This document shows positions 2,216 through 34,080 of a stretch of 64,000 nucleotides of DNA, in pieces. Source of the stretch: a virus (lineage: Duplodnaviria > Heunggongvirae > Uroviricota > Caudoviricetes). The DNA lies in IMG/VR virus record IMGVR_UViG_2565956614_000003, one strand, 5' to 3'. The number at the start of each line of letters is the position of its first letter. Position 1 is the first letter of the stretch. The notes below the pieces were generated by a model. That model searched no databases. It was not told the DNA's origin and was given only the letters and a program-made list of their open reading frames with translations. Made by a program: the position numbers and the translations under genes.

Positions 2216-2655
2216 TTGGCTGGGGTGTATGCGTTCTTGCGTTAGCCTTAGCCGATCGCTATTTGCTAAAACGCAAGGACATCACGCATTTAGAACTTGG
2301 TGATGTGGAAATTAAACCGGGTTTCATCCGGGTGCCGTTCAAATACCGGTCTAAATTCCCGTTTTTGCGCGGCGCAACGGTCAGATATTGGATCCGCGAT
2401 GTTCAGAAGCCGACGACAGTGATTGAAGGCGAACAACGTTGTTTGACGTCGGCTGAACAGGGCGAAAACAGTGAATGGTTGTACATACCCACTGAATATA
2501 TGGGTAAAGGAGAGCGACTGTGGCATTTCAACGTCATGGTTACGCATGGCGACTCGTTCATTAACCCGTTGTATCGGATTTTCCCTGTTACTCAGCAAAT
2601 CCGCAGAAGTTACGTAATAAATCTCGCACAGGATGTGTCAGATGACGAAAAATAA
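2212..2655 (+). CDS. lydB: Antiholin LydB
   Basis: 147 aa; start overlaps lydA stop (translational coupling); synteny. Confidence 0.7.
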   Translation: MIGWGVCVLALALADRYLLKRKDITHLELGDVEIKPGFIRVPFKYRSKFPFLRGATVRYWIRDVQKPTTVIEGEQRCLTSAEQGENSEWLYIPTEYMGKGERLWHFNVMVTHGDSFINPLYRIFPVTQQIRRSYVINLAQDVSDDEK

Positions 2656-3244
2656 GTATGCAACGGTCGATTTTGACCAGGTTAATGAAAAGGGGCTGAA
2701 ATCCCTTATCGCGGCGATCAATAAAACCGGTGTTACGGTAATTGAGGTTGACTCCAGCAACCGCGCAACAACGAAAGATGGCGTTAAAGTTAAAACCGCA
2801 AAGCTGGTTCTTAACGACGGACAAATTCTTGCCATACAGGTAAACGATACTGGCGATATATCGTCTGTGAGGCTGAATGGAAAAGCTATTCCTAACGCTC
2901 AGTCGCCGGATATCAAGACGCTTGGTACCGTCATGGGGCAAGCGGCCCGCAAAAACTCCGCAAAATTCCAGAAATCACTGATCGCCAAAGCGAAACGTGT
3001 TGCCAATCCGGTAGACAAGAAACCGGCAGTAAAATCCAACTTTCAGCGCCTGCAAGAGGCAAAACAGCGGAATGCTCAGGTGGTTGCCGCTTATAAATCA
3101 GCGCAGAACTCGGTGTCTTTCAATCAACAGCAGATCACTGATTTGCGGGCGAAGCTGGATAAGGAGACAGGCCGACTCAATAACGAAAAGGCCCGAAATG
3201 GCGAACTCAAACGCCGTCTTAAGCAACTGAAAGCAGGAAATTAA
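2633..3244 (+). CDS. hdf: Hdf, DarA-related head protein of the Dar anti-restriction system
   Basis: 203 aa; shares segment ...KNSAKFQ... with the downstream DarA-like protein; synteny. Confidence 0.65.
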   Translation: MCQMTKNKYATVDFDQVNEKGLKSLIAAINKTGVTVIEVDSSNRATTKDGVKVKTAKLVLNDGQILAIQVNDTGDISSVRLNGKAIPNAQSPDIKTLGTVMGQAARKNSAKFQKSLIAKAKRVANPVDKKPAVKSNFQRLQEAKQRNAQVVAAYKSAQNSVSFNQQQITDLRAKLDKETGRLNNEKARNGELKRRLKQLKAGN

Positions 3245-3245
3245 C

Positions 3246-5165
3246 ATGGAACAGTTCAATATCAATAAAGGGGTGACGATCAAGCCTGGGCTTGACGTGC
3301 TTCCCCCGCCAGTGACTGATGATGAATATCGCGCATTAATGGCCGGTGAGGACCGCTATCTGATGACGGAATCCAACACCCTGGAGGAAATCGAGGCTAC
3401 GTTCTTCTATGACACGCCGATCCACTGGTGTGCTACGGATTTACTGGAGGCGATTAGTTCTACTCGTTTGCAGTTACACCGGACCATGCAGGCATTTGTC
3501 CGGGCATTGAACCAGAAGCTGAATGGTACCGGAATCTCTGCGGGGAGTGATAAAACGGGGGAGGTGGCCCAGAGCGGCGCGCGCGCGATCGGCGGTGCTG
3601 AAATTGGCCGGGCACGTAACGTTAACGGGCTGCCGGTCCTGCCAGCCATTATTCCGCTCAGTGATGGTCAGACTATCAGCATTCTGTTTCATAGCCCGAC
3701 AGCGGAAAACCGGATCACCAATAGCGATACGCTGGTTGCTTTCCAGTTCTTACTGAATAAAAAAGACGTTACTCACACCGTTGCTCCGATGAGTGGACGT
3801 GATATGACGCTGGCGCAGGTCACCATGAAACTTGCCAACCTTGCAGAGAAAAACTCGGCAAAATTCCAGCGTGCGCAGAAGAAGAAAAAAGCCCTGGTTG
3901 ATGAAATAACCCAACTACAGGCTGACAGTGACCAGAAAGAGGATGCCATGAGCGACCTCGCGGATCAGGTGGCAGCGGTAGAAGGGCAGAAGGTAGATCT
4001 GGAGCAGAAAATTAACGCTGTTGCATCGGAAGCGGATTCTCTTTATGAAGAGAATGAGCGTTTGCAGACGGAGATTGATCAGCTCAATCGCACAGGTGGG
4101 CGCGATACCATTGATCCAGCGGGGATGACTGGTGGGCACTCGCGCGCGCTGACGGATCGCCTTGCCAGTATCAAAAATCGTATGCATATGAACGGGGAAG
4201 TGACGCTCAGTAATGGAGCATCAATGAAGCAATTCATTGGGGGCGGCGAAGGGTATATCCAGTTAACCGATCCGGATGGCAGCGTATACATGATCAAGGC
4301 TAAATCCATACAGGGTGTGGACATGGCAGATGCGATCGGCAAGCTGTTTAAAGCCTATAAAGCGGGTAATGTATCGGAATACCTGGTCCAACCAGAAGAA
4401 CATAAACCGGAAAACGTCGAACCTGAACCAGCGGAGGATACCGGTAGCTCTTCGCCTGAACCAGAAGTCTCTGTAGGTGCATATCGATATGCCCTGCAAA
4501 TGCGTCCGGCGGCCCCTGGCGCAATACCTGAAGGTAACAAAGCAATTCTGCCGCGCCCTGATGAAGGTGACCCGTATTATGAATATGCACGCTACGGCAT
4601 TGCTACTTACGATACCCCGCTTTCTGATCAGCAAATGAGTGAGTACGACCTGAAGTTATTGCCTCGCGAGGATTCTTTCGACTTCCTGGCGAAGACACTT
4701 ACTAATGGTCCGTTTGGCAAATATGCACAAAAAGCTCTGGAGCTGGCCACCAGCTCACCAGACGAGTTCCGCGTAATGCTGAAAACTCAGTTTCAAAAAA
4801 CTTTCCCCAATATTGCGTTTCCTGGGGGCGCTGGCACCGAGAAAATGGTGCAGAGCATGATCAATGCATTGCAGGCCGAAGTCGGTGAGATTACTCAGCC
4901 AGAACCGGCCCCGGCACAGCCTGATGAAACGGTTAGCGAAGCAGATGCAGAGGCTAATAAAGCCATTGAATATCTCAATAACGTGATGGATATACAAAGC
5001 ACTGACATGGCGGAGATCCGTAACGCCCGGGGCAATGTCCGGGAAGCGATTGCAGCCCTTCAGGCTGCCGGACGTTTTGAGGAAAACGAAGAGCTGGTTA
5101 ACGGCGCAGCTCGCCACCTGGCTGATCTGTTGGTAGCAATCCAGAAAGCGGGGGTAGCGGCATGA
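3246..5165 (+). CDS. darA: DarA, internal head protein of the defence-against-restriction system
   Basis: 639 aa, coiled-coil central region; position and size match P1 darA. Confidence 0.8.
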   Translation: MEQFNINKGVTIKPGLDVLPPPVTDDEYRALMAGEDRYLMTESNTLEEIEATFFYDTPIHWCATDLLEAISSTRLQLHRTMQAFVRALNQKLNGTGISAGSDKTGEVAQSGARAIGGAEIGRARNVNGLPVLPAIIPLSDGQTISILFHSPTAENRITNSDTLVAFQFLLNKKDVTHTVAPMSGRDMTLAQVTMKLANLAEKNSAKFQRAQKKKKALVDEITQLQADSDQKEDAMSDLADQVAAVEGQKVDLEQKINAVASEADSLYEENERLQTEIDQLNRTGGRDTIDPAGMTGGHSRALTDRLASIKNRMHMNGEVTLSNGASMKQFIGGGEGYIQLTDPDGSVYMIKAKSIQGVDMADAIGKLFKAYKAGNVSEYLVQPEEHKPENVEPEPAEDTGSSSPEPEVSVGAYRYALQMRPAAPGAIPEGNKAILPRPDEGDPYYEYARYGIATYDTPLSDQQMSEYDLKLLPREDSFDFLAKTLTNGPFGKYAQKALELATSSPDEFRVMLKTQFQKTFPNIAFPGGAGTEKMVQSMINALQAEVGEITQPEPAPAQPDETVSEADAEANKAIEYLNNVMDIQSTDMAEIRNARGNVREAIAALQAAGRFEENEELVNGAARHLADLLVAIQKAGVAA

Positions 5166-5527
5166 CACTATCAGCTATTGAGTTAATGGATCTCAGCGAT
5201 AAGTTGGATGCTCTGATGTCCAAAGCGGCTACCGCGAGTGGCATGGAGTTGCTGGATATCAGCGATGAAATTGACCAGATCATGCAACAGATGGGGTACG
5301 GTGTGTCCGGCGGCAGTAGTGGCGAGGAAAAACAACCTTCGGTACATGATGGTGTGCCAAAACTGGTTGCTGATTTCCTGGCTGATAAATTCGTCGATCA
5401 GAGCACCGATGCATTTATCGGTACGTTGCAGGACTTGAGTCAATATGTTGGCACATACATCGATCTGGACCAGGTTAAACAGCACACGGCGGCATGGATA
5501 GCCGCCAACATTAAAGAGGCAGAGTAA
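5162..5527 (+). CDS. ddrA: DdrA (Dar operon small protein)
   Basis: 121 aa, overlaps darA stop; synteny. Confidence 0.6.
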   Translation: MTLSAIELMDLSDKLDALMSKAATASGMELLDISDEIDQIMQQMGYGVSGGSSGEEKQPSVHDGVPKLVADFLADKFVDQSTDAFIGTLQDLSQYVGTYIDLDQVKQHTAAWIAANIKEAE

Positions 5528-5539
5528 GGCGTAACAGGG

Positions 5540-8527
5540 ATGAGCTTAAGCGATCAGGTGGTAATGGCCACCAGCATAGAAACGCTGATCGAGCTGCTAA
5601 AAAACCTGCCCAATTACGGGCGGGTTTCGTATGTGGTGACAGCGAAGGGAGACGAGGTAAAAACAGCGTTTGATATCGTCGATGCCTCAGCTCTTTTGGT
5701 ATCCAATACTCTGGACGGGAAAATTAACCCTGACTATCCCCAGGAACTTCAGCCGCGCGACCGGACCCGCGCATCCAGTCTTCTTCAGGTCAACCAGATA
5801 TCCAAGGATTTGCGTCCTGCCCAGCTTACCGATTCCGGTTTATCCAGCCATGGCGCGCCGATAATTGGTGAGGACAATGCCGTTGAGTCAGGTAATGGAC
5901 GGACCATGGGGATCATCAAAGCCTATCAGGACGGCAATGCGGATCGGTATCGTGAGTACCTGATTGATCATGCGACCGAATTCGGCATACGACCTGAAAA
6001 GGTTGAATCAATGGCGGCTCCGGTACTGGTGCGCCGCCGGTTAACTAAGGTTGACCGCGTTCAGTTTGCCAAGGACTCAAATATTTCTGATCTTCAGGAA
6101 ATGGCAGCCAGTGAAAAGGCTTTTGTTGATGCCGACAGCATAACACCGGCGATGATGGCGCTTTTTAACCCGTCAGAAAGCGGAGATCTGCTTAGCCGCA
6201 GTAATGACACGTTTATTCGCGGATTTATGACGCAAGTTGGTGCCACACAGGCGGCTGGCCTTGTAACTGAAGATGGGCGACCAACACGGCAACTTGTAGA
6301 CCGTATACAAAACGCGATCTTTGCCAAGGCATATAAGGATGCGCGCCTGGTAAGGATGGTTGCAGAAGAACCTGATCCGGATATGCGTAATGTTCTGACG
6401 GCGCTTAATGCGGCAGCCAATGATTTTGTCCAGATGCAGGCTTTGTCAGGAGAAGCGCACAAGCAGGCTGTGACAACTATTGTTGATGGCATTGAGACAG
6501 CGGATAGCCTCGATAAAAAGGCGCTGGCGGCATTGAAAGATGCGGTAGACCTGGTAAGGCAATCGAAGGAGTTAGGCCAGCATATTACCGATGTTATTGC
6601 TCAGGGGGATATGTTCAGCGAAACGGCCCCGGAAGTGAAAGCACTCGCGTTGTTCATCGTCGCGAATAACCGTAGCGCGAAGCGTATGGCCACCGCCTTT
6701 AAGTTGATGGCGCAACGTATCAATGATGAGTTACAGCACCAGGGCCAGGCGCTCGGGGATATGTTTGGCGGCGGCGATGTGTCGTTACAGGATATCCTTC
6801 GCCAGGTGTCTCAGGAACTGGAAAACGAAGGCATGCAAGGGATATCCGGCGGTCTTTTCGAGTCCGTTTCCGGCGGTAGTTACAACGGTGTTGCTCCGTA
6901 TACCAGTTTGCTATTACATCGGGCATCCGGCATCAAAGACATTATTCATCTGATCAGGCTGCTTTCCCGCACAGATCCCCAGGATGAACAGCTTGTACAA
7001 GTGCTTGCGCATTTTGTTCGAATGCCTGTTGCCGACGTGAATAAATGGTGCCGATTATTCGGTATCAGCAATTCGTTACTTCGCGGATTGTTAAATCACG
7101 CATCCTCCCTTGGGCGCGACGGCTTTGATGAGATAGCGCAGGCGATACAAAACGGAGATATGCCACCAGCTATTGACTGGTTTTCCATTCGCCCAACCAG
7201 GGTGAAAGCATTCCTTAGCGCGGCGCATTCGGCATCACCATTGGCAGAAATGGTTCAGAGGTTGTCGCTCATATTCACAGACCATACCGCGTTGGGTGAT
7301 CTGACTCTGGACGAGATGAAAGAAGCCTCCATTCAGTGGGCCGATCAACAAAATGAGGTTAACTCAGACTTCTTGCCAGCATTCAGGAAGGCCGTTAGTA
7401 AAGCGGATGATTCCCGTGGAATTCTGAAGGCATTTAAGGCATTGCAAAGTCGGGTTAATAAACATGTCGGAGATATCGATGGGGTAACGGCGGAAGGCAG
7501 GGATATCCTTAAAGAGCACGGCATAACGCCAGAGTTTATTGATGAGATCAGGACGGATATGCAGCGTGAGGTCGTATCGTCCCTGCAAATTGTAGCCAGA
7601 GCGTTGGCGGATGCTAATCCGAAGAGTGCGGCCATTGTTAACCGGGTTATTGGTGATATTGAAGCATCGGAGGGCATGGGGGCGCTGAAACTCTTCCTTT
7701 CGCGAGCGTTTAATCCTAACGGCAATATTCTCCCTGGCATTATTGGTGAGGCTAAAAAGTATGTCAGTGAAGAAGAACTTGAGCAGCTTGACCAACTACT
7801 TAAGCGATTCTCATATAACCCGCAGACACGCTGGCAAATGAATCAGCGAAGTATGGGTTCGGTCCACGAGAAAGTGTTATCTGCCATGAACAGTGCGATC
7901 GCAAACTCATCCGTATCTGAAGAAAAAGCTCTTGAGTGGGCCGACTCTTTTATCACAGAAGAAGTGGAAGAAGCCCGCGCTGGACAGAATGGTGGGATAG
8001 ACCTGCGCAAGGAACTTGCTGATATTTATCGCCTGACCGGCGGGAAAATATCGACCTTATCAAAGGTAGTTCACCACCAGGGAAGGGCATATGCAAATCT
8101 AAATGGTGTTGTTGCTGTCAATTTGAACGATGAAAATGCAAGTGCACTGTGGCACGAGCTGGGTCATCATCTTGAGTACAGTAACCCCGGTTTGTTAGAG
8201 AAAGCCCGGTCATTCCTGAAGGCCAATGTTGAAGGGGATAAGCCATCTTTCGTCAATATCGGTGGGCGTGGCAAGCCTGAATGGTGCTTCAGATCTCGAT
8301 TGAGTAATATTTATATGGCGAAGGTATACCCGCCAGCCTCAGTAAGTAACACCGGGAAAATTCGGCAGAAATCACCGACTATTTCCAAAACGTCAGCAAC
8401 GGAAGTATTCTCTATGGCTCTTCAGTTGTATCATGACAAAGAGGCCGCTGCCGCATCACTGATGAATGGTGACGGATTGCTGGAACTGTTATTAGGTGTG
8501 GCAAAGGAGCTAAATAATGCAGATTAA
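5540..8527 (+). CDS. ddrB: DdrB, large Dar-operon head protein
   Basis: 995 aa; synteny and size match P1 ddrB. Confidence 0.75.
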   Translation: MSLSDQVVMATSIETLIELLKNLPNYGRVSYVVTAKGDEVKTAFDIVDASALLVSNTLDGKINPDYPQELQPRDRTRASSLLQVNQISKDLRPAQLTDSGLSSHGAPIIGEDNAVESGNGRTMGIIKAYQDGNADRYREYLIDHATEFGIRPEKVESMAAPVLVRRRLTKVDRVQFAKDSNISDLQEMAASEKAFVDADSITPAMMALFNPSESGDLLSRSNDTFIRGFMTQVGATQAAGLVTEDGRPTRQLVDRIQNAIFAKAYKDARLVRMVAEEPDPDMRNVLTALNAAANDFVQMQALSGEAHKQAVTTIVDGIETADSLDKKALAALKDAVDLVRQSKELGQHITDVIAQGDMFSETAPEVKALALFIVANNRSAKRMATAFKLMAQRINDELQHQGQALGDMFGGGDVSLQDILRQVSQELENEGMQGISGGLFESVSGGSYNGVAPYTSLLLHRASGIKDIIHLIRLLSRTDPQDEQLVQVLAHFVRMPVADVNKWCRLFGISNSLLRGLLNHASSLGRDGFDEIAQAIQNGDMPPAIDWFSIRPTRVKAFLSAAHSASPLAEMVQRLSLIFTDHTALGDLTLDEMKEASIQWADQQNEVNSDFLPAFRKAVSKADDSRGILKAFKALQSRVNKHVGDIDGVTAEGRDILKEHGITPEFIDEIRTDMQREVVSSLQIVARALADANPKSAAIVNRVIGDIEASEGMGALKLFLSRAFNPNGNILPGIIGEAKKYVSEEELEQLDQLLKRFSYNPQTRWQMNQRSMGSVHEKVLSAMNSAIANSSVSEEKALEWADSFITEEVEEARAGQNGGIDLRKELADIYRLTGGKISTLSKVVHHQGRAYANLNGVVAVNLNDENASALWHELGHHLEYSNPGLLEKARSFLKANVEGDKPSFVNIGGRGKPEWCFRSRLSNIYMAKVYPPASVSNTGKIRQKSPTISKTSATEVFSMALQLYHDKEAAAASLMNGDGLLELLLGVAKELNNAD

Positions 8528-8828
8528 AATCGCAGCGCCATTAGGCGGAGATGCCATTATCGAATTTGATGATAATGAAGAAGTTTCCGGGCGTTTAAGC
8601 ATTATCTCCGGTGACATTACCGAGGACATGATCGCTGAAGCCATAGCTGGGGCAAATCCCAATAGCTATATGGGATTCGTTAACACCCTTGATGCTCCCG
8701 CAAGTGATGTTCTCCGAACGCTGCATCTTTACGCTGGCTGGTTTGTTGATTGGCCAGCAGTAGATGGTGGCGATGAGGACGACGACGACGATGATTTTGG
8801 TGATCATGTAGACCAGATCGTATATTGA
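8517..8828 (+). CDS. Small acidic protein downstream of ddrB
   Basis: 103 aa ending in poly-Asp tract (GGDEDDDDDD); overlaps ddrB stop by 11 nt; terminator follows. Confidence 0.45.
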   Translation: MQIKIAAPLGGDAIIEFDDNEEVSGRLSIISGDITEDMIAEAIAGANPNSYMGFVNTLDAPASDVLRTLHLYAGWFVDWPAVDGGDEDDDDDDFGDHVDQIVY

Positions 8829-8830
8829 AG

Positions 8831-8860
8831 AAATCCCGCCAATCGGCGGGATTTTTTTTA
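8831..8860. terminator. Bidirectional rho-independent terminator (aaatcccgcc-aatc-ggcgggattttttt)
   Basis: Perfect 9-bp stem, 4-nt loop, T-run on + strand and A-run on the other side; between converging operons. Confidence 0.7.
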
Positions 8861-10324: not shown

Positions 10325-10521
10325 AGTCTTTCCTCTGCTTAAAACCTGATGTATTGCGCCTTCAGGTGGGGCAGGAATGTTTTCCCACCAGCGAACGCAA
10401 TATCTCGGGGTGTTCTTTTCGTGAAAAGCGTGTGCCATTGCCAACTTTGGCGTTTGTTTGCGAGTTCGTGCTTTTGTCGGCGTCTGGACCACCGCTTTTC
10501 TTTCAGTCGTTTTTTACACAT

Positions 10522-12028: not shown

Positions 12029-14759
<2,731 letters not shown>

Positions 14760-14792
14760 TTAATTAGAATAATTCGCATCGTGTTTGAACGG

Positions 14793-14814: not shown

Positions 14815-14825
14815 AAGGATTACCA

Positions 14826-17800
14826 ATGAACAAGCTATCTATGGGTGTGTTTCGCTGTTCAAGTGTCAGCGAAATATTGAAATACATTAGGGCAATAACA
14901 TCTCACCGAGCGCCGATTAAATACGGCGTGGAAAAGGTGGAAGGCAAAAGCTATGACCGACTGCGCCGGGAGGCGAATCAGAAGGCGATAGATTTGCTTA
15001 ATTCGCTGGTGGACGGCGCGACACTGACAGATGAACAGCGCCAGATCCTGGCCGGGTACACTGGTGAAGGCGGCATTGGCGGGTCCGTCTCCGAATATTA
15101 CACACCAAAGCCTATCGCTGAAGGTGTCTGGGAGATCATGAAGCTCTACGGCGCGGACGTAGGTAACACTCTGGAACCATCGGCGGGAACCGGCGTTTTT
15201 AATGAGACAAAACCGGTTGGTACGGTGATGACCGCGACTGAGATCAGCAGTGTTTCCGGTCGTATAAACCAGTTGTTACACCCGGAAGACAGCGTACAGA
15301 TTTCCCCGTTCGAACAGCTGGCTATAAACACGCCTAACGATTCATTCGACCATGTTGTGGGTAACGTTCCGTTCGGCGGTCGTGATAACACACGCAACAT
15401 CGATAAGCCTTACGCAGAAGAAACGGACATGGGGGCTTACTTCATGCTCCGCATGCTGGACAAGATAAAACCTGGCGGATTCATGTGTGTGATTGTGCCG
15501 CCGTCCATTGTTTCAGGTTCAAACATGAAACGGTTACGCCTGCGCCTATCACGGAAAGCTGAATTTCTTGGTGCCCACCGCTTGCCTACCGGTACTTTTG
15601 ACGCAAACGGGACCAGTACAGTTGTTGATGTGGTGCTGATGCGCAAACATCCGGCAGAGATGGCTGAGAAAATCCCCCTGGTGGATGAAAGCACTCTCGA
15701 ATCGGCAAATGTGCTTTGGCCAACGTTTATTTCTGGCAAGTGGTTTGAAAAGGACGGCCGCCGGTTTGTTCATGGCACCCAGGAAAAGGGCTTCCAGGGG
15801 CGTATTGAGGTTCGTGCCGACGGTCAGATTGATAACCAGGCTCTTAAAGCGAAGCTGATTCATCGTTTCGAAAGCCGTATCGACTGGTCTTTGCTCGATA
15901 TGGCTGAACCGTCACCGACCGCAGACGTTGTTGGTGAAGGGGAAATGCGCCTGATTAATGGCGTATGGCAAAAATATGCTGGTGGTCGCTGGATTGAAGC
16001 TGATGCAGGGAAGGAACTTAAGATCGATGCTGCCAGTTATGGCGCGGATAGCTGGGAGGCTCTTCAGCGTAACCTGACTACAACAGAAGGCCGTCTCGGC
16101 ATGACATTTACCCAGATGGCAAATGTCCGCGATAAGTACACCACATCAATCAGCGACGATATGGTGCAGCTGGTGGACTGGATTAACAGCCAGCCTGAAA
16201 AATACCGTGAACGCTTGTATCGCGGGGCGATGATTGGCCGGATGTTAATTGAATATCAGGACATGAAGGCCGCCGGGCATAGTGCTGAACAAATCGAACA
16301 GCAGCGCCTTTCTCTGGTATCCCGTTTGCAGGCAGAGATTGACCGTTTTGGTAACCCCGGTCGCGGTCCGATAGCGAAATTATCGGGGAGCGGTGCGCGC
16401 GCCTGGTTTGCTTTCCGTGGTGCAATTAAGCTGGATGGCACTATTTCTGACGAGCTGACAGGAAAACTGGTTACGCATGATTCCAGCGCCAGTTATGACT
16501 CCACCAGCTATCAGGACACCCTGCGTTATCTCTACAGTGATCTCACTCGCGATCCAATCCAGCTCGATGATTTCCGCCTTGCGTTTACCGGCGAACTGCC
16601 AGCCAGTGATGACGAGTTGCTTAATTTATTGGCCAGCACCCCTGGCATTGCGGTTTCACCGTATGGCGGGATTGTTCCGTTCGCCCGCGCCACCAGCGGC
16701 GACATTAACGAGATAGTGGCTCCAAAACAGGAATTCCTCGCCACGCTCCCCGACGGTCCAGTAAAGAACAACGTCCTTAATCAGCTGGCAGCGATCGAAG
16801 AGAAGCGCATCAAGACGCCAGCAGAGAATATCCGCTTTAAGCTCAATAGCCGTTGGTTCGACCGTTCCGTCATTCTGGAGTTTTTGCAGGAAAACGGCTA
16901 TCCGGATCTGCGCTATGTGCAGTCAGTGCAGCTGGAAGGCGACGAAATGGTTTCTGACACCTATCACGGTGGTGATGGCCTGTTCGTCGGGCACCGATAC
17001 GGTGTCGTCCAGCGTAAGGATAAAGAAACAGGCGAGATCCGCTACGAGTGGGACCGTAAATCAGGTGAAAACGCGACCGGGTTCCCGGCACAGCTGGAAA
17101 AGTATCTCAATGGTGCGCGTATCGGTGGCAAAGATAGCGCGACGGCGAACGGCTACCGCGAGCAGATGGCACTGCTTGAGGACCAGTTCAATAAGTGGAT
17201 CAAGACGCACGATCGCTACGATGAGCTGGTTGCTAAATACAACGATGTGTTCAATAGCAATATCCCGTATGAACACTCTGGCGATCCGCTTGGGTTGAAG
17301 GGATTAAGCGGTAAGCGCCAGCCATTTGATTACCAGAATAGCGAGGTGCGCCGACTGTCCGAAGATGGGCGCGGCATCCTGGGCTTCGGCACCGGGCTGG
17401 GTAAAACCACGACCGCGCTGGCGCTTGAGGCGTTCAACTATGAGAACGGTCGCTCCACCCGTACTGCGTATGTAGTGCCTAAATCAGTGCTGGAAAACTG
17501 GTATTACGAAGCAAAAGAATTCCTGAGTGAAGAGGCATTCAGTAACTACCTGTTCGTCGGTCTTGATGTGCTGATGGATGGCGATCAGATTCGCCAGGTG
17601 CCGGTGCTCGATGAGAACGGTAAACCTGTCGTTGGTGCAGATGGCACTCCCGTTATGCGCGATGCCCTTAAACTGGCAGATGAAGCCACTATCACGGCGC
17701 GGATGAACGCGATCCCGCACTCAAACTACCGTGCAGTCGTGTTTACCAAAGAACAATACGCCCGCATTCCGCTACGTGATGACACCGTAGATGAGCATGC

Positions 17801-20800
17801 ACAAGACATGCTTTATGACTTCGTTGCTGCCGGGCGTGTGGCCAGCGCAATGGACTCCGATTCCCATCGCAAAGAGGCGGCGCGTCGCCGGGTATTGTCG
17901 GAGTATTCAGATACCGGTACCGAAAAAGCAGAGAAGTATCCGTACTTTGAGGATATGGGCTTCGACAGCGTGATTGCTGACGAAGGCCACAACTACCGCA
18001 ATAGCTATAAAAATGGTCGCGAAGCGTCACAGCTGGCCTATCTGCCCACCAGCGCGGTGGCGCAATCGGCGCGAGATATGGCAATCAAAAACGCGTACCT
18101 GATGAAAAAGAATGGTGGGCGTGGACCGGTTCTCCTGACTGCAACGCCAGTCGTTAACACCCCGATCGATGCATACAACATGCTTTCTCATGTTCTGCCG
18201 AAGGAATACTGGCAGAAGATGGGGATCTACGGTCCTGATGACTTCGTTAAATTCTTCGGCAAGACCAGGCTGGAAACGGTACAGAAAATCAGCGGTGAAG
18301 TTGAAGAAAAAATGGCGCTGGTGGGCTTTGAAAACCTTGATGCGCTGCGCGGTATATTCCATCGCTGGGTAACGCTTAAAACGGCGGAAGACGTTAAGGA
18401 TACCGTGGAGATCCCGGAACTGGACGAACACCAGCAGGATGCACCACTTACTGAAGAACAACTGGCGGCGTATGAAGAATTGCGTCAGCAGGCGGAAGCG
18501 GCGGCCAAAGCCAACAATGGCGTAACGACCTCGGTCAATGAAGACGGCGTGATTGAGCACGAGAAGGCCCGTCCGATCTTCTCAATAATCAGGGATATGG
18601 ACCGCGTATGTACTGACATGGACCTGTACTATCGCCGGATCACCTATCGTTTCCTGCCGGAGTACGCCGATGCGGTGCAGCAGCTGGCGGACAGTTTGCC
18701 TAAACAAGCCACCAGCGAAGACGACGACAGTGATGATTCAATCACGCAGCAATCGCAATACTCCCTGATAGATAAGGGCGAGTTTATTCAGTTGCAGGTT
18801 CCGGAAGCGTTCGAGCGGGAAGTGAATAAGCGCCTGGCCAGGTTTGGCATTGACGAACAGACCGTAACTCACCCCGTTACGCCCAAATACGCGAAGCTGA
18901 TTGCCACGCTGAAGGAGTTTTTCCCGGAAGGTAAGCAAATCATCTTCACCGATGAAAAAACGCAGCACCAGAAGCTCAAGCGCATTATCTGCAATGCTCT
19001 TAACCTTGAACCTTCAAAGGTGGGGATGCTGAATGCTCAGACGGTTGCCGAGGCAGGTAAAACCGGTAAGAAACTGAAAGCGGTTAAACCGCCGAAAGAG
19101 TTACCGGATGAACCAACAGATGCACAGATAGCGAAATACAACGAGCAAATGGCTCTGTATGACGCCTATATCGCGCAGCAAAATGAAATGTCGTTGGGCG
19201 GTCTGGAAAAGATTGCAGCCGACTTCCAGGAGGGCCGGACTCCGATCATCATCTGCAACAAAAAGGCAGAGGTGGGTATCAACCTGCATCGAGGAACGAC
19301 TGACATCCATCATCTGACGTTGCCATGGACTCCAGCCAGTATTGCGCAACGAAACGGTCGCGGTGCCCGAGTTGGCTCCAACCGTGCAAGCGTTCGCGTT
19401 CACTACTACTGCGGCAAGGGTTCTTTCGATGAATACCGACTGAAGACGCTGAAGCGTAAAGCAGGCTGGATCTCCGATATCCTCCGTTCAGATAAGTCAG
19501 AAATGGAGAACGCCGACGCCAACGATATGATCGAAATGCAGATGTATACCGCTAAGGATGATGGCGAACGTCTGGCAATGATGCAGGTTCAAATGGATAA
19601 GGCGAAAGCCGCGCAACGCGCTCGCCAGAAAGAACAGGCTACTATCGACCTTCAGAACTACATCAAGGCGCAGCACGCAGCTGGTGAGGATGTGGAGGTG
19701 CTTACCGCTGAATTAGAGCGAAGCAAAGCGGAACTTGAAAAGACCACCGCCGACGTCGCCAAATTCAAACAGGCGGTAATGGCCAAAGCAGCTGATAACG
19801 CAGACTGGAAAGCCCGCTGGGGTAGCGTCCATCACACAGACCGTACGTTGTTAGCACAGTATCGCGCGTCGTTGAAAAGCGCCATTCAGCGCAAGGCTAA
19901 TATCTCTCAAGCCATCTCCCGCTATGAGAAATTATTGAACCGTACTCAGAAGGCCGCGACGGATATCAAACGCCTTCGCCCGCTGGTGGAGGATGCAATA
20001 AATAAAGGCATTCTGGATGTTGATCCTGACCTGGTTAACCATGCGAGTGAGTTCCTTATTATCGGCGATCGCTCATGGCGTGTAGGCCAATACTACGATT
20101 GTGCCGGTGATATCGTTCGCATTAAGTCGCTGGACTTCGACAGCCAGCGCGCAGACGTGGAGATTATCTTTACCTTCAAAGGTACCAAATCGGGTAACTG
20201 GGATGTGAAGACGCTGGATAAACAGGTTGATGTAACTCCCGATGAAGATGCTGTTATGCAGAAAATCAGTGGTGGCGTCTCCATCGCCGGGATTAACGAC
20301 ATCATTTCCTGTGACGATTTCTACCGTTTCCAGCAGCGCGGCATGATCAAAATCACTGACTCATACGGCGTTCAGACTACAGAGTCAGGCTATAGCATTG
20401 ATTTTGTTGGTACCTATACGGATCCACTGAAGCATGCGGTTTACCCGGATCGCCATGACGGCGCGCTGAAGTCGTCAATTGCAAAATGGGTGCTTGGTAT
20501 GATGTCGGAAGGGAATAACCGCCAGATCCGTTCGGCAGAAACATTCCTGGTTGAACTGTTTGGCTCCAATTATGGCGATGTAATCGCGTCATACGGAGAT
20601 ACGCTATCCCCTGAAGCAATTCAGGAGAAAATAGCGGATGCGATCGCCAGAATGCCGGAAAAAACAAGCCAGGGGGCTACTCGTAACGGGGATTCTGAAC
20701 TTGAAGTCACCAATGCCATTTTCGGTACCAATGAGTTCCGGGCGTCAGATTATGAGATCACCACAGCACAGTTTGGCACCATTGGCATTTACAGCAATAA

Positions 20801-21593
20801 AGACGAGATCAAGCAGGCAATGGACGCAGCAAACGCGCGCATCGCAGCAGAACGGGAAGCCAATCTGAATCATGCAGTCGCCGCACTGACTCAATCGTGG
20901 GTAACAGCAATCAGGGAGGCCGCCACCACAGGGAAAATCACACCTGCAATTGCGGATGTCGTAAACGACGGCTCTAAATTTATGGATGCCTATCAAATGG
21001 ATGCGGTGCAGTTGCCATCAGCCTATGGCCAACTCAGCTATCGCATGACCTACAACCTGGTATCAATGTTTTCCGACCTTGCCATCCTTGGGCTGGTGGA
21101 TCTTAACGAGGTTACGCCGGAATTGCTCAGCATGCGCAAGAATCATGTGGAGATATTGCAGAGAATTAACACGGTTCTTGCCGGGCGCACCGATGAAGAG
21201 AAACAGGCCGACGCTGATCGGATAAACCTGGCCCTTGGCAACATCACGGAGGAAGAAATTGCCGCCAGAAACGAGAAACAAGAAGAGTTATCATCAATAC
21301 AGGGTGATGCCACCAGCATAGCTCAGTCTCTTGGTCTGAATTATCACGTATCCACCGCCGACCTGAAGATGATGTACGCACCAAAATTCGCCGCTGGCGA
21401 GGTATTTGGGCTTCAGGAAGCCTCAGGCATGAAAGGCGTTCTTTTCCGTGCGAAAGACGCAATCAAGGCGAAATTCGGCGCTCGCTGGTTGCCAGCGAAG
21501 GCGAAGAACAGCGACTTCCCAGGTAACTGGTGGATTATCGAGACAAAACACAACGTGGCGGACGTTCTGGCCGTCATCCAACAATACGCATAA
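14826..21593 (+). CDS. darB: DarB, giant methyltransferase-helicase anti-restriction protein
   Basis: 2255 aa; N-terminal N6A-MTase-like motifs (VVGNVPFGG), central helicase motifs (GTGLGKTTTA, ADEGHNYRN); size matches P1 DarB. Confidence 0.9.
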   Translation: MNKLSMGVFRCSSVSEILKYIRAITSHRAPIKYGVEKVEGKSYDRLRREANQKAIDLLNSLVDGATLTDEQRQILAGYTGEGGIGGSVSEYYTPKPIAEGVWEIMKLYGADVGNTLEPSAGTGVFNETKPVGTVMTATEISSVSGRINQLLHPEDSVQISPFEQLAINTPNDSFDHVVGNVPFGGRDNTRNIDKPYAEETDMGAYFMLRMLDKIKPGGFMCVIVPPSIVSGSNMKRLRLRLSRKAEFLGAHRLPTGTFDANGTSTVVDVVLMRKHPAEMAEKIPLVDESTLESANVLWPTFISGKWFEKDGRRFVHGTQEKGFQGRIEVRADGQIDNQALKAKLIHRFESRIDWSLLDMAEPSPTADVVGEGEMRLINGVWQKYAGGRWIEADAGKELKIDAASYGADSWEALQRNLTTTEGRLGMTFTQMANVRDKYTTSISDDMVQLVDWINSQPEKYRERLYRGAMIGRMLIEYQDMKAAGHSAEQIEQQRLSLVSRLQAEIDRFGNPGRGPIAKLSGSGARAWFAFRGAIKLDGTISDELTGKLVTHDSSASYDSTSYQDTLRYLYSDLTRDPIQLDDFRLAFTGELPASDDELLNLLASTPGIAVSPYGGIVPFARATSGDINEIVAPKQEFLATLPDGPVKNNVLNQLAAIEEKRIKTPAENIRFKLNSRWFDRSVILEFLQENGYPDLRYVQSVQLEGDEMVSDTYHGGDGLFVGHRYGVVQRKDKETGEIRYEWDRKSGENATGFPAQLEKYLNGARIGGKDSATANGYREQMALLEDQFNKWIKTHDRYDELVAKYNDVFNSNIPYEHSGDPLGLKGLSGKRQPFDYQNSEVRRLSEDGRGILGFGTGLGKTTTALALEAFNYENGRSTRTAYVVPKSVLENWYYEAKEFLSEEAFSNYLFVGLDVLMDGDQIRQVPVLDENGKPVVGADGTPVMRDALKLADEATITARMNAIPHSNYRAVVFTKEQYARIPLRDDTVDEHAQDMLYDFVAAGRVASAMDSDSHRKEAARRRVLSEYSDTGTEKAEKYPYFEDMGFDSVIADEGHNYRNSYKNGREASQLAYLPTSAVAQSARDMAIKNAYLMKKNGGRGPVLLTATPVVNTPIDAYNMLSHVLPKEYWQKMGIYGPDDFVKFFGKTRLETVQKISGEVEEKMALVGFENLDALRGIFHRWVTLKTAEDVKDTVEIPELDEHQQDAPLTEEQLAAYEELRQQAEAAAKANNGVTTSVNEDGVIEHEKARPIFSIIRDMDRVCTDMDLYYRRITYRFLPEYADAVQQLADSLPKQATSEDDDSDDSITQQSQYSLIDKGEFIQLQVPEAFEREVNKRLARFGIDEQTVTHPVTPKYAKLIATLKEFFPEGKQIIFTDEKTQHQKLKRIICNALNLEPSKVGMLNAQTVAEAGKTGKKLKAVKPPKELPDEPTDAQIAKYNEQMALYDAYIAQQNEMSLGGLEKIAADFQEGRTPIIICNKKAEVGINLHRGTTDIHHLTLPWTPASIAQRNGRGARVGSNRASVRVHYYCGKGSFDEYRLKTLKRKAGWISDILRSDKSEMENADANDMIEMQMYTAKDDGERLAMMQVQMDKAKAAQRARQKEQATIDLQNYIKAQHAAGEDVEVLTAELERSKAELEKTTADVAKFKQAVMAKAADNADWKARWGSVHHTDRTLLAQYRASLKSAIQRKANISQAISRYEKLLNRTQKAATDIKRLRPLVEDAINKGILDVDPDLVNHASEFLIIGDRSWRVGQYYDCAGDIVRIKSLDFDSQRADVEIIFTFKGTKSGNWDVKTLDKQVDVTPDEDAVMQKISGGVSIAGINDIISCDDFYRFQQRGMIKITDSYGVQTTESGYSIDFVGTYTDPLKHAVYPDRHDGALKSSIAKWVLGMMSEGNNRQIRSAETFLVELFGSNYGDVIASYGDTLSPEAIQEKIADAIARMPEKTSQGATRNGDSELEVTNAIFGTNEFRASDYEITTAQFGTIGIYSNKDEIKQAMDAANARIAAEREANLNHAVAALTQSWVTAIREAATTGKITPAIADVVNDGSKFMDAYQMDAVQLPSAYGQLSYRMTYNLVSMFSDLAILGLVDLNEVTPELLSMRKNHVEILQRINTVLAGRTDEEKQADADRINLALGNITEEEIAARNEKQEELSSIQGDATSIAQSLGLNYHVSTADLKMMYAPKFAAGEVFGLQEASGMKGVLFRAKDAIKAKFGARWLPAKAKNSDFPGNWWIIETKHNVADVLAVIQQYA

Positions 21594-21626
21594 CAGGAGC
21601 GCCCGGTTCGCCGGGCGTCGCATAAT

Positions 21627-22067
21627 ATGGCCACACTATCTGATACAATAAAACCGAATAAAACATATCTTGAGGCGGTACTCCGTACAGCGTTGTTAGG
21701 AAAGACAGAAGACGAATACGTTGATTTCTTCCTGTCAGGGCTACGCGGGCGATTACTGAAAAATCCCCGCCTGTACCGCAGCTATGGTCCATACTGGCCG
21801 GAAATTAAAAAATTATTACTGGAGCGCGGTTATGGTAATTTCGGTCGTCTCGTTGACCGTGACGTTCGCAAAATTTACCGTTATGACCGCCCGGCGCTAA
21901 CACTCATAGCCGCGACGCTCTACAGCCAGGAGCGTTTTGATAATGGTCAGATATACTCAGCCTGGCATTTACTGCCAGTGCCTGAAGAAGTTGACGACCA
22001 GGACTATGAGTTTGAGTCTTACGATTTGGAAGTTGAAGCCTTGGCACAGGCTGGAGAGAAAACTTGA
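21627..22067 (+). CDS. ulx: Ulx-like protein
   Basis: 146 aa directly upstream of and overlapping lxc; synteny with P1 darB-ulx-lxc. Confidence 0.55.
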   Translation: MATLSDTIKPNKTYLEAVLRTALLGKTEDEYVDFFLSGLRGRLLKNPRLYRSYGPYWPEIKKLLLERGYGNFGRLVDRDVRKIYRYDRPALTLIAATLYSQERFDNGQIYSAWHLLPVPEEVDDQDYEFESYDLEVEALAQAGEKT

Positions 22068-22312
22068 AAAAGCGATACTACACAGTAAAGCATGGGACGC
22101 TACGAGCATTACAAGAGTTTGCTGACAAGCATAACGTTGAGGTGCGCAGGGAAGGGGGAAGTAAAGCTCTGCGCATGTACCGTCCGGACGGGAAATGGCG
22201 TACGGTCGTCGATTTCAAAACTAACAGCGTTCCCCAGGGCGTCCGTGACCGGGCATTCGAAGAATGGGAGCAGATCATCATAGATAATGCATTGCTTCTC
22301 AATGCGGATTAA
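22064..22312 (+). CDS. lxc: Lxc (Bof) C1 co-repressor-like small protein
   Basis: 82 aa basic protein between ulx and mod; synteny. Confidence 0.55.
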   Translation: MKKRYYTVKHGTLRALQEFADKHNVEVRREGGSKALRMYRPDGKWRTVVDFKTNSVPQGVRDRAFEEWEQIIIDNALLLNAD

Positions 22313-22463
22313 ACTTCCCCAAATTATGGCTGTTTGCTCACCGAGCATCGCTCAAAGAAGCACGATTCTTCAAACATATAGATAGTGATAGTGCCACAAC
22401 TTCTGGCTCTAACGGGCTGGGGAGGCGGCGCTTTGTTGCTAAATGATCTGGTTTAAAATGGAT

Positions 22464-33926: not shown

Positions 33927-33950
33927 CAAAAAAAGACGCGAGCGGCGTCT
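33927..33950 (-). terminator. Rho-independent terminator on minus strand about 150 bp downstream of pacB (agacgc-cgctc-gcgtct + T7)
   Basis: 6-bp stem, 5-nt loop, T7 on minus strand; flanked by additional cgatac/gtatcg complementarity. Confidence 0.5.
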
Positions 33951-34080
33951 GTATCGCCTTAGACTTAAGCGGGAGGCCAATCCCGGCACCCGTTTTAATG
34001 AGGTGCCTGATAAGCATAAACCGAAAATGCCTCAAGGCGCAAGAGGTCAGGTTCAATGTAACATCGGCAGTTAAAAAACA

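What the first reader, a model, noticed from the sequence alone, without database searches (positions are those of the whole stretch)
14826..21593. Giant 2255-aa methyltransferase-helicase (DarB) adjacent to the portal and protease genes
A single 6.8-kb ORF combines N6-adenine methyltransferase-like motifs with DExH helicase motifs and a long C-terminal extension. It lies divergent from the portal gene and is followed by ulx/lxc. In P1, DarB is a capsid-packaged anti-restriction protein that protects incoming DNA from Type I restriction. The darB-ulx intergenic hairpin (21599-21617, no T-run) may mark processing or attenuation.
Basis: partly seen in the sequence, partly recalled or inferred. 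Interest (0 to 1): 0.35.

Follow-up and report, generated by a model that had tools for sequence, protein, structure and literature searches.

The report
Phage P1 DarB anti-restriction gene
This 6.8-kb gene is the already well-known darB of a P1-like phage, a giant methyltransferase-plus-motor protein that is packed into the virus head and protects the injected DNA from the host's Type I restriction enzymes; the only new detail is that the small hairpin after it looks like a structured ribosome-binding site for the next gene, ulx.

Summary
A single ORF at 14826-21593 (+) encodes 2255 aa. It is collinear with phage P1 DarB with no indels: 98.2% nucleotide and 98.7% amino-acid identity, dN/dS 0.11. 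The P1 gene order is kept: pro, prt (portal), darB, ulx, lxc, mod, res. The partner genes hdf, darA, ddrA and ddrB lie upstream in the same window.

Formal searches confirm a gamma-class N6-adenine DNA methyltransferase (aa 90-291, HsdM/TaqI-like fold) and a SWI2/SNF2-type ATPase (aa 833-1519; GLGKT, DEGH, TATP, QRNGRGAR). The 736-aa C-terminal extension is conserved at the same position in remote 2000-2500-aa relatives. It has no fold match among solved structures.

Motif IV is NVPF rather than NPPY. N, P and F are invariant across the aligned relatives, so this is a family trait and not decay.

DarB is already known. How it blocks EcoK/EcoB restriction remains undefined in the literature I could read.

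The hairpin at 21600-21617 is real and has no T-run. It is conserved with compensatory stem changes in D6, Pantoea, Enterobacter and Citrobacter relatives. It always lies directly after a (A/C)GGAG and 6-9 nt before the ulx ATG. I read it as a split ribosome-binding site like those of T4 genes 38 and 25, not as a processing or attenuation signal.

The parts
14826..21593 (+). darB coding sequence (2255 aa plus stop)
   Evidence: ORF list. 98.2% nt and 98.7% aa identity to P1 darB with no indels. Full-length match to phrog_1685.
14740..14770 (+). Predicted sigma-70 promoter PdarB (TTGTCT-19 nt-TAGAAT), inside the end of prt
   Evidence: Position transferred from the AF234172 annotation (offset +5825). 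Sequence read. A predicted site only.
14815..14819 (+). Shine-Dalgarno AAGGA of darB, 6 nt before the ATG
   Evidence: Read directly.
14826..14915 (+). Codons 1-30: N-terminal capsid-targeting sequence of DarB
   Evidence: Residues 1-166 are identical to P1 DarB. The first 30 residues were shown sufficient for capsid targeting in P1 (PMC9024508).
14943..15092 (+). aa ~40-89: helical LPD36-like module with the conserved GEGG (GxGU) motif at aa 80-83
   Evidence: G80 invariant and G82/G83 nearly invariant in alignments A1 and A6. The domain is defined by Iyer et al. 2017 (PMC5512222). No HMM was available to test it.
15093..15698 (+). aa 90-291: gamma-class N6-adenine DNA methyltransferase domain (EYYTP 90-94, motif I LEPSAGTG 116-123, motif IV NVPF 180-183)
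   Evidence: Pfam N6_Mtase and Eco57I. Weak PDB sequence hits to Type I HsdM proteins. The AF2 model matches HsdM, BsaXI, M.TaqI, M.BseCI and CamA. Motif residues are invariant in relatives.
15699..17321 (+). aa 292-832: conserved region with no recognised domain (mixed alpha/beta, confidently modelled)
   Evidence: No Pfam hit. Conserved blocks in A6. AF2 mean pLDDT 82 for aa 1-832; the top PDB fold matches cover only about 200-370 aligned columns, consistent with the MTase core alone.
17322..19382 (+). aa 833-1519: SWI2/SNF2-type SF2 ATPase (GTGLGKT 855-861, DEGH 1052-1055, TATP 1105-1108, QRNGRGAR 1508-1515), with a ~250-aa insert between the two lobes
   Evidence: Pfam SNF2-rel_dom, ResIII and Helicase_C. 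NCBIfam partial matches to DrmD and DpdE. Motifs. Lowest dN/dS of the gene, 0.044.
19383..21590 (+). aa 1520-2255: C-terminal extension. The model shows a three-helix coiled coil (about aa 1579-1726), a beta-rich domain (about 1743-1860), helical domains and a small alpha/beta end domain
   Evidence: AF2 pLDDT 84. No PDB fold match at E<=0.001. Remote homologues (24-37% id) are nearly all 2000-2500-aa proteins matching at the same C-terminal position.
21595..21599 (+). AGGAG: the only good Shine-Dalgarno upstream of ulx, 27 nt from the ATG
   Evidence: Read. It gives the best anti-SD duplex in all 10 junction variants tested.
21600..21617 (+). Hairpin CGCCCGG-UUCG-CCGGGCG between the SD and the ulx start
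   Evidence: Fold. Conserved with compensatory changes at 4 of 7 stem positions and no mismatch in the 12 junction variants tabulated; one further variant (L074) has a mismatch. No Rfam family matches.
21627..22067 (+). ulx (146 aa), needed for DarB to localise to the capsid
   Evidence: P1 annotation. phrog_1629 'Ulx-like anti-restriction'. Role from PMC9024508 Table 1 and PMC12810830.
22064..22312 (+). lxc (82 aa), modulator of the C1 repressor
   Evidence: P1 annotation. phrog_2160.
13041..14750 (-). prt, portal protein, divergent from darB
   Evidence: P1 annotation. phrog_1497 portal protein.
12029..13048 (-). pro, head-processing protease
   Evidence: P1 annotation, coordinates transferred.
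2633..8527 (+). The other Dar genes: hdf 2633-3244, darA 3246-5165, ddrA 5162-5527, ddrB 5540-8527
   Evidence: ORFs. PHROG Hdf-like, DarA (phrog_1926) and DdrB (phrog_2299) matches. 98.3% nt identity to the P1 ddrB/hxr region. ddrA is assigned only by position and ORF size (121 aa, about the 13 kDa given for DdrA in PMC9024508); it was not in the family search.

Best explanation
The ORF is the darB gene of a P1-type (Punavirus) phage or plasmid prophage.

Shown elsewhere for P1: DarB is made late and is directed into the procapsid by its first 30 residues. [quoted passage not shown] Incorporation depends on Hdf/DarA, DdrB and Ulx. It is believed to enter the cell with the DNA, and it protects in cis whatever DNA was packaged with it against the Type IA enzymes EcoK and EcoB.

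Shown here: the window's copy keeps the targeting sequence unchanged. It has an intact HsdM/TaqI-like N6-adenine methyltransferase and an intact SWI2/SNF2 motor. The gene is under purifying selection, and the partner genes are present in the window.

Inferred mechanism: DarB molecules stay on the DNA they were packaged with. In the cytoplasm they use ATP to track along the duplex and SAM to modify or engage adenines. Type IA enzymes that reach their sites would then meet a modified or occupied substrate and not start the translocation that leads to cleavage. The large C-terminal coiled-coil and globular region probably serves packing, ejection or partner contacts.

Ulx is translated from the same mRNA. 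A conserved hairpin brings a GGAG that lies 27 nt upstream to within about 9 nt of the ulx AUG (a split ribosome-binding site).
For: Identity and context:
- 98.2% nt identity to P1 darB, no indels, same neighbours, and all Dar partner genes present.
- Selection: 88 synonymous versus 33 non-synonymous differences, dN/dS 0.106; 0.044 in the motor and 0.097 in the MTase.

Catalytic equipment:
- Pfam hits are above the curated cut-offs.
- Motif I is present, and motif IV residues N180, P182 and F183 are invariant down to about 30% identity.
- The same motifs, plus GFGTGLGKT, VDEGHNYRNSY, LTATP and QRNGRGARVG, appear in the consensus of 2000-2500-aa relatives at 18-50% identity.
- The predicted fold of aa 1-832 matches solved Type I HsdM, BsaXI, M.TaqI and CamA structures.
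- The C-terminal extension is conserved in position across the family.

Biology, from papers:
- Capsid-targeting signal, copy number and Ulx dependence: PMC9024508.
- Order of packaging and EcoB/EcoK specificity: PMC12810830.
- Cis-only action: PMC12707154.
- MTase-SNF2 dyad with DarB as the archetype, and the translocating-methylase idea: PMC5512222.

Split RBS; T4 precedent in PMC3014915.
Against: - No activity of DarB has been demonstrated. The papers I could read say the mechanism is undefined (PMC11109961, PMC12707154).
- Protection follows the enzyme family: EcoK and EcoB are covered, while EcoA needs DdrA/DarA. EcoK and EcoB recognise unrelated sequences. This is awkward for a simple site-methylation model and argues against non-specific adenine methylation.
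- Motif IV is NVPF, not the canonical NPP(Y/F), so catalysis is unproven.
- Plasmid-borne darB gave an anti-restriction artefact that did not depend on the protein (Chi plus EcoKI sites triggering restriction alleviation, PMC11109961). Earlier plasmid evidence is therefore unreliable.
- For the hairpin, the single-sequence fold is not exceptional (z = -0.7).
- GGAG-hairpin-start patterns occur about as often in this window as in shuffles.
- No expression data exist for ulx.
Confidence: 0.85

Rival explanations
1. Motor-only model. DarB protects DNA mainly through its SWI2/SNF2 translocase, which strips or blocks Type IA complexes (or their HsdR motors) on the incoming DNA. The HsdM-like domain would serve as a DNA or partner-binding module rather than as a working methyltransferase.
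For: - The motor has the strongest purifying selection in the gene (dN/dS 0.044).
- Specificity follows the enzyme family (EcoK/EcoB versus EcoA) rather than a DNA sequence (PMC12810830 and PMC9024508).
- The closest solved relatives of the MTase domain by sequence are Type I HsdM subunits, including EcoKI.
- SWI2/SNF2 enzymes are known to displace proteins from DNA, for example RapA (named in PMC5512222).
Against: - The SAM-binding and catalytic motifs (LEPSAGTG, N-V-P-F, EYYTP) are invariant or nearly so across relatives at 30-50% identity. That is hard to explain if catalysis were dispensable.
- No interaction between DarB and Hsd subunits is known.
Confidence: 0.3
2. Passive shield. DarB, with the other Dar proteins, simply coats or occludes the entering DNA until host modification or replication has occurred, and needs no enzymatic turnover.
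For: - Action is cis-only, which led to the occlusion hypothesis quoted in PMC12707154.
- About 40-45 copies of a 250-kDa protein are present per head.
Against: - About 40 molecules cannot coat roughly 100 kb of DNA.
- Conservation of two sets of catalytic motifs, and dN/dS of 0.04-0.10 in those domains, argues for enzymatic function.
Confidence: 0.08
3. One reading: the darB-ulx hairpin is an RNA processing site, a 3'-end stabiliser of darB mRNA, or a transcription attenuator. It is not part of the ulx ribosome-binding site.
For: - It is a GC-rich stem with stable tetraloops (UUCG, GAAA, GCGA, GCAA), of the kind that can block 3' exonucleases.
- It lies 6 nt after the darB stop codon.
Against: - None of the 12 junction variants tabulated has a U-run after the stem, and the terminator scan does not call the window's copy.
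- A 6-8 bp stem is far shorter than typical RNase III substrates (general knowledge, not tested here).
- A stabiliser or attenuator would not need to abut a GGAG with no gap, nor to stay 6-9 nt from the ATG, in relatives whose loop, spacer and stem sequences all differ.
- No other usable SD lies near the ulx ATG.
Confidence: 0.2

Closest known systems
DarB of bacteriophage P1 / P7 (AAQ13985.1 in AF234172; Punavirus)
   Same: Same length (2255 aa) and collinear without indels. 98.7% aa identity, the same N-terminal capsid-targeting residues, the same neighbours (prt, pro, ulx, lxc, mod, res) and the same partner genes.
   Different: 30 amino-acid substitutions, 17 of them in the C-terminal extension. 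None touches the motifs identified. The surrounding genome lacks the IS1 and IS5 copies of the sequenced P1 c1.100 mod749::IS5 strain.
Methylase-helicase dyad of 'polyvalent proteins' (LPD36 + EcoKI/TaqI-like MTase + SWI2/SNF2 ATPase; Iyer et al. 2017, PMC5512222)
   Same: The same domain order and motifs. DarB is the named archetype of this group. The family-wide consensus was recovered here.
   Different: Nothing essential. In this lineage motif IV is N-V-P-F rather than the NPP(Y/F) quoted for the group.
Type I R-M methyltransferase subunit HsdM (e.g. EcoKI M, PDB 2ar0/2y7c; V. vulnificus 7eew)
   Same: The best sequence and fold matches of the MTase core. Gamma-class motif order.
   Different: DarB has no HsdS partner and no recognisable target-recognition domain. 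It is fused to its own motor and is delivered as a virion protein. The matches cover only about 200-370 aligned columns.
Split ribosome-binding sites of phage T4 genes 38 and 25
   Same: The SD is too far from the AUG (22 and 27 nt in T4; 22-28 nt here), and an intervening hairpin reduces the spacing (to 5 and 11 nt in T4; 6-9 nt here). The structure is conserved among relatives. The T4 gene 25 site also lies at an intercistronic junction (PMC3014915).
   Different: An unrelated phage lineage, gene and sequence. Here the evidence is comparative only; in T4 it rests on mutagenesis, reporter fusions and DMS probing.

Membership tests
P1 DarB orthologue (Punavirus) | Full-length, collinear high identity to the P1 darB product | tested here: met
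   98.2% nt and 98.7% aa identity over all 2255 codons with no indels. 19 phage records match at 95-99% identity.
P1 DarB orthologue (Punavirus) | Conserved synteny: pro-prt divergent upstream, ulx-lxc-mod-res downstream | tested here: met
   The 12.9-kb and 6.2-kb blocks are 98.6-99.1% identical to P1.
P1 DarB orthologue (Punavirus) | N-terminal capsid-targeting sequence (residues 1-30) | tested here: met
   The first substitution relative to P1 is at residue 167. The signal is defined in PMC9024508.
P1 DarB orthologue (Punavirus) | Partner Dar genes (hdf, darA, ddrA, ddrB, ulx) in the same genome | tested here: met
   ddrA is assigned by position and ORF size only.
P1 DarB orthologue (Punavirus) | Packaged in virions; darB mutants are restricted by EcoK/EcoB | not testable with these tools
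   Known for P1 only from the literature.
Gamma-class N6-adenine DNA methyltransferase (EcoKI HsdM / TaqI-like) | SAM-binding motif I (hxDPxxGxG-like) upstream of motif IV | tested here: met
   LEPSAGTGVF at 116-125 precedes motif IV at 180-183. P118 and G123 are invariant.
Gamma-class N6-adenine DNA methyltransferase (EcoKI HsdM / TaqI-like) | Catalytic motif IV (N/D)PP(Y/F/W) | tested here: inconclusive
   The motif reads N-V-P-F. N180, P182 and F183 are invariant and V181 is at least 90% conserved in relatives; one relative has NPPF. N-[ILV]-P-[YF] occurs in active Erm/KsgA adenine methyltransferases (my recollection, not tested). Activity is unproven.
Gamma-class N6-adenine DNA methyltransferase (EcoKI HsdM / TaqI-like) | Class I Rossmann-like MTase fold matching solved N6A DNA MTases | tested here: met
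   AF2 model with pLDDT 82. Foldseek probability 1.00 to 7eew, 3ufb, 2okc, 2ar0, 8w0p, 2adm, 7qw5 and 7lni. Pfam N6_Mtase is above its cut-off.
SWI2/SNF2-type SF2 ATPase | Walker A GxGKT, Walker B DExH, motif III and the motif VI arginine finger, with two RecA-like lobes | tested here: met
   GTGLGKT 855, DEGH 1052, TATP 1105, QRNGRGAR 1508. SNF2-rel_dom 42.5 bits (cut-off 24.9) and Helicase_C 27.8 bits (cut-off 23.5).
SWI2/SNF2-type SF2 ATPase | DNA-dependent ATPase or translocase activity | not testable with these tools
   No published assay was found.
Polyvalent-protein methylase-helicase dyad (Iyer 2017) | N-terminal LPD36 helical domain with a GxGU motif, then MTase, then SWI2/SNF2 | tested here: met
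   G80-E-G82-G83 is conserved. The model shows helices at aa 43-60 and 69-76. No LPD36 HMM was available.
Split (hairpin-bridged) ribosome-binding site, T4 gene 38/25 type | SD more than 20 nt from the start codon and no usable SD at normal spacing | tested here: met
   The best anti-SD duplex is the (A/C)GGAG, whose 3' end lies 22-28 nt from the ATG, in all 10 variants tested.
Split (hairpin-bridged) ribosome-binding site, T4 gene 38/25 type | A stable hairpin fills the gap and reduces the spacing to a functional 5-11 nt | tested here: met
   6-8 bp GC stems with tetraloops; the residual spacing is 6-9 nt.
Split (hairpin-bridged) ribosome-binding site, T4 gene 38/25 type | The structure is conserved by covariation among relatives | tested here: met
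   Four stem haplotypes, double changes at stem positions 1, 3, 6 and 7, one G-C to G-U change, and no mismatch in the 12 variants tabulated. One extra variant at a contig end (L074) has a C-A mismatch.
Split (hairpin-bridged) ribosome-binding site, T4 gene 38/25 type | Destabilising the stem lowers translation and compensatory changes restore it | not testable with these tools
   Needs reporter fusions.
Intrinsic (Rho-independent) terminator | GC-rich hairpin immediately followed by a U-run | tested here: not met
   The stem is followed by TCGCATAAT and is not listed by the terminator scan. No T-run follows the stem in any relative.

The most novel reading that the evidence does not exclude
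The conserved hairpin between darB and ulx is a functional split ribosome-binding site. It would be a natural example, outside the T4-like phages, of an SD brought to its start codon by an intervening stem-loop. It is maintained across P1-like elements of Escherichia, Salmonella-type SJ46 relatives, Cronobacter, Pantoea, Enterobacter and Citrobacter. Because the SD abuts the darB stop codon, the stem would be melted by each terminating ribosome and would refold afterwards. This could tie the amount of Ulx (the DarB packaging helper) to darB mRNA and its translation.
Probability: 0.5. Interest if true: 0.3.

Novelty: already known. Interest (0 to 1): 0.15.

Why it matters
As a gene call it adds nothing new, because darB of P1 has been known since 1987 and was sequenced and annotated in 2004. 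It is still a useful reminder that the mechanism of this 250-kDa virion-delivered enzyme remains open. The analysis here narrows what a mechanism must explain:

- Both catalytic modules and the whole C-terminal extension are conserved across a family of 2000-2500-aa proteins.
- Motif IV is a family-specific N-V-P-F.
- The MTase core is closest to Type I HsdM.

The ulx hairpin, if confirmed, would be a tidy extra case of structure-assisted translation initiation. It would also be a practical point for anyone re-engineering the darB-ulx region, for example when using the DarB targeting signal to load cargo into P1 heads.

Tried and rejected
1. M.EcoGIX/M.BceJIII as a biochemical analogue of DarB. 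I recalled a helicase-linked orphan methylase, but the paper (PMC7736820) never mentions DarB and describes single-strand-specific plasmid MTases. Dropped.
2. Modular shuffling of the DarB C-terminus. The word-based search found proteins that join DarA-N, DdrB-N or another P1 protein to the DarB C-terminus, and DarB with internal deletions. The junctions are at arbitrary points, the partner genes lie on the same strand in the same genome, and identity is 97-98%. I read these as in-frame deletion derivatives of degraded P1 prophages, not as evidence of an independent module.
3. Fold search of the C-terminal 736 aa against the PDB found nothing at E<=0.001, only generic coiled coils.
4. Pfam, NCBIfam and PHROGs on aa 292-832 and 1520-2255 gave no informative family.
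5. Rfam found no family at the junction.
6. A formal pair count with the count of structure pairs was not possible. MAFFT misaligns stems that differ in sequence, so pairs were tabulated by script, anchored on the GGAG.
7. A test of whether GGAG-hairpin-start is unusual within this window showed it is not above shuffles. The argument therefore rests on comparative data only.
8. The P1 genome paper (Lobocka 2004) and Piya 2017 are not held. I could not check whether the ulx hairpin was already noted there.

Full report
**1. The observation**

The ORF list shows one open frame at 14826..21593 on the + strand, starting with ATG and encoding 2255 aa. An AAGGA lies 6 nt upstream of the start. The next largest ORFs inside it on either strand are at most 177 aa. 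Upstream, on the opposite strand, are a 569-aa ORF (13041-14750) and a 349-aa ORF (12029-13078). Downstream on the same strand are ORFs at 21627-22067, 22064-22312, 22443-24404 and 24407-27319. The description in the finding is therefore accurate to the base.

**2. Identity**

- Megablast of the 6768 bases against 50,697 phage records gave 19 records covering at least 80% of the query at 95-99% identity. They include P1 (AF234172, AF234173, NC_005856), P7, SJ46, RCS47 and others, where the gene is annotated darB, 'DNA adenine methyltransferase and helicase' or 'N-6 DNA methylase'.
- Against P1 darB there are 121 nucleotide differences and no indels (98.2%). There are 30 amino-acid substitutions (98.7%).
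- By Nei-Gojobori counting there are 88 synonymous and 33 non-synonymous differences, giving dN/dS 0.106. By region: 0.044 in the motor, 0.097 in the methyltransferase, 0.239 in the C-terminal extension.
- The P1 annotation places pro and prt (portal) divergently upstream and ulx, lxc, mod and res downstream. BLAST of the window against that P1 stretch shows the same order at 98.6-99.1% identity. It lacks the IS1 and IS5 copies of the sequenced P1 strain.
- PHROGs gives a full-length match of the protein to phrog_1685, matches Ulx to 'Ulx-like anti-restriction', and matches the 569-aa ORF to portal protein.
- The other Dar genes are in the window: hdf 2633-3244, darA 3246-5165, ddrA 5162-5527 (assigned by position and size only) and ddrB 5540-8527.
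- Rfam finds the P1-type C4 antisense RNA, isrK and three tRNAs elsewhere in the window.
- The window is therefore a P1-like phage or plasmid prophage, and the ORF is darB.

**3. Anatomy of the protein**

- *Family hits.* Pfam finds N6_Mtase (aa 90-291) and Eco57I (168-244). It also finds SNF2-rel_dom (849-911, plus a weak second stretch), ResIII (833-904) and Helicase_C (1455-1517). All are above their curated cut-offs. NCBIfam gives partial matches of the motor to DISARM DrmD, DpdE and related defence helicases, far below their equivalog cut-offs.
- *Motifs read from the sequence.* EYYTP 90-94, motif I LEPSAGTG 116-123, motif IV NVPF 180-183, Walker A GTGLGKT 855-861, DEGH 1052-1055, TATP 1105-1108, QRNGRGAR 1508-1515.
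- *Motif IV.* The canonical NPPY/F is absent. In an alignment of relatives down to about 30% identity, N180, P182 and F183 are invariant and V181 is at least 90% conserved, so N-V-P-F is a family feature and not decay. The GEGG motif of the N-terminal LPD36 module described by Iyer et al. (PMC5512222) is conserved as well.
- *N-terminal model.* An AlphaFold2 model of aa 1-832 has mean pLDDT 82. It matches solved gamma-class N6-adenine DNA methyltransferases with Foldseek probability 1.00: Type I HsdM proteins 7eew, 3ufb, 2okc, 2ar0/2y7c and 5ybb, then BsaXI, PacII, M.BseCI, CamA and M.TaqI. These top matches span only about 200-370 aligned columns, which I take to be the MTase core. I therefore treat residues about 300-832 as confidently folded but without a recognised relative.
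- *C-terminal extension.* The C-terminal 736 aa has no Pfam or NCBIfam family. An exhaustive HMMER search of 1.84 billion representatives found 127 hits. The remote ones (24-37% identity) are almost all proteins of 2000-2500 aa that match at the same C-terminal position. The extension is therefore an integral part of an old family. Its model (pLDDT 84) shows three long helices forming a coiled coil, a beta-rich domain, helical domains and a small alpha/beta end domain. No PDB fold matches at E<=0.001.

**4. What is known, and what mechanism I commit to**

From papers:
- The first 30 residues direct DarB, or a reporter, into the P1 head. About 40 copies are packed. DarB is the last Dar protein added, and Ulx and DdrB aid its localisation (PMC9024508; PMC12810830).
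- Ulx, DarB and DdrB are needed against EcoB and EcoK. DarA is needed against EcoA and StySA, and DdrA is listed as the antagonist of EcoA.
- Iyer et al. proposed that the SWI2/SNF2 motor carries the methylase along the injected DNA.

My evidence adds that both catalytic modules are intact in this copy, are conserved across the family and are under purifying selection.

I therefore favour an active, DNA-tracking enzyme that stays with the DNA it was packaged with. It would render Type IA target sites refractory by methylation (hemimethylated sites switch Type I enzymes from restriction to modification; established Type I biology). The main rival is motor-driven eviction or blocking of Type IA complexes.

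The family-level specificity (EcoK and EcoB recognise unrelated sequences, while EcoA is not covered) and the HsdM-like nature of the MTase core keep the rival alive. It also argues against non-specific adenine methylation. A passive shield is unlikely, given about 40 molecules per 100 kb and two conserved active sites. None of these steps has been shown experimentally.

**5. The hairpin**

- *In the window.* The sequence after the darB stop is TAA C AGGAG CGCCCGG TTCG CCGGGCG TCGCATAAT ATG(ulx). RNAfold forms the stem, 7 Watson-Crick pairs plus an optional G-U. No T-run follows it, and the terminator scan does not list it.
- *Close relatives.* 75 of the 81 loci with enough upstream sequence are identical across the stretch from the end of darB to the first codons of ulx.
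- *More distant relatives.* These are informative.
  - L081, Cronobacter phage JK004 and a Pantoea alvi contig keep both arms, but their loop and spacer sequences change.
  - Phage D6 has CGGCCCC-AACC-GGGGCCG.
  - Enterobacter and three Pantoea contigs have CGGCCC-GNRA-GGGCCG.
  - A Citrobacter contig has TGGCCTGG-GCAA-CCGGGCCA.
- *Covariation.* Anchored on the GGAG, the 12 junction variants tabulated give four stem haplotypes. There are double changes at stem positions 1, 3, 6 and 7, one G-C to G-U change, and no mismatch. One further variant at a contig end (L074) has a single C-A mismatch.
- *Geometry.* In every case the stem starts directly after (A/C)GGAG and ends 6-9 nt before the ATG. 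The linear SD-to-ATG distance is 22-28 nt. That GGAG gives the best anti-SD duplex anywhere upstream of ulx in all 10 variants tested.
- *Precedent.* This is the geometry of the split ribosome-binding sites of T4 gene 38 (22 nt reduced to 5) and gene 25 (27 reduced to 11), which enhance initiation (PMC3014915).
- *Caveats.* The single-sequence fold is unremarkable (z = -0.7). GGAG-hairpin-start patterns are no more frequent in the window than in shuffles. No Rfam family covers the site. I could not read the P1 genome paper to see whether the structure was noted before.
- *Weighting.* About 0.5 for the split RBS, about 0.2 for a stability or processing element, and little for a terminator or attenuator.

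**6. Comparison and verdict**

This is DarB of a P1-type phage, a member of the LPD36-MTase-SWI2/SNF2 'polyvalent protein' dyad of which P1 DarB is the archetype. All testable membership features are met. Motif IV is the exception, being a conserved variant.

- Novelty: already known.
- Interest is low as a discovery. The residual interest lies in the unsolved mechanism (well known to the field) and in the small, testable observation about ulx translation.

Noticed in passing
window 9647-10492 (-), with 8858-9640 (-): Between ssb and hxr the window has two ORFs where the P1 reference has the single gene isaA. The 281-aa ORF carries a Tad2-like (Thoeris anti-defence 2, PF11195/DUF2829) domain at aa 197-280, encoded by about 685 bp that P1 c1.100 lacks. 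The same arrangement occurs in Salmonella phage SJ46 and in vB_EcoM-Ro157c2YLVW, so P1's isaA looks like a deletion fusion.
   Followed up: partly
window 14826-21593 and the whole window: darB contains 11 Chi sites (6 on +, 5 on -), the same number reported for P1 darB (PMC11109961). The 64-kb window has 50 Chi octamers (19 on +, 31 on -), against roughly 2 expected from length alone. It has only 7 EcoKI, 11 EcoBI and 2 EcoAI recognition sites.
   Followed up: partly
public proteins P0003, P0009, P0011, P0013, P0018: E. coli and Salmonella assemblies contain in-frame fusions of DarA-N, DdrB-N or another P1 protein to the C-terminal 460-580 aa of DarB. They also contain DarB with large internal deletions. 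One of them (P0009) is seen on 12 contigs. They look like deletion derivatives of P1-like plasmid prophages, not natural domain shuffling.
   Followed up: partly
window 8826-8858 and 23212-23215: Relative to the sequenced P1 c1.100 mod749::IS5 strain, this element has no IS1 (with isaB) between hxr and isaA and no IS5 in mod, so mod (22443-24404) is intact.
   Followed up: no
L074 1-48 (IMGVR_UViG_2713896768_000036, contig end): One ulx locus has a different sequence upstream of the hairpin and a stem with one C-A mismatch (TGCCCGG...CCGGACG). It may be a rearranged or darB-less variant. Only 46 nt are available upstream.
   Followed up: no
window 12029-13078 (-): The P1 head-processing protease Pro matches phrog_1801 over its full length, but PHROGs labels that family 'tail fiber protein'. 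This looks like a mislabel in the library.
   Followed up: no
window 33817-34006 (-), 59524-59596 and 61600-61749 (-): Rfam finds the C4 antisense RNA and isrK next to each other, and three tRNA genes, as expected for the P1 immI region and tRNA cluster.
   Followed up: no
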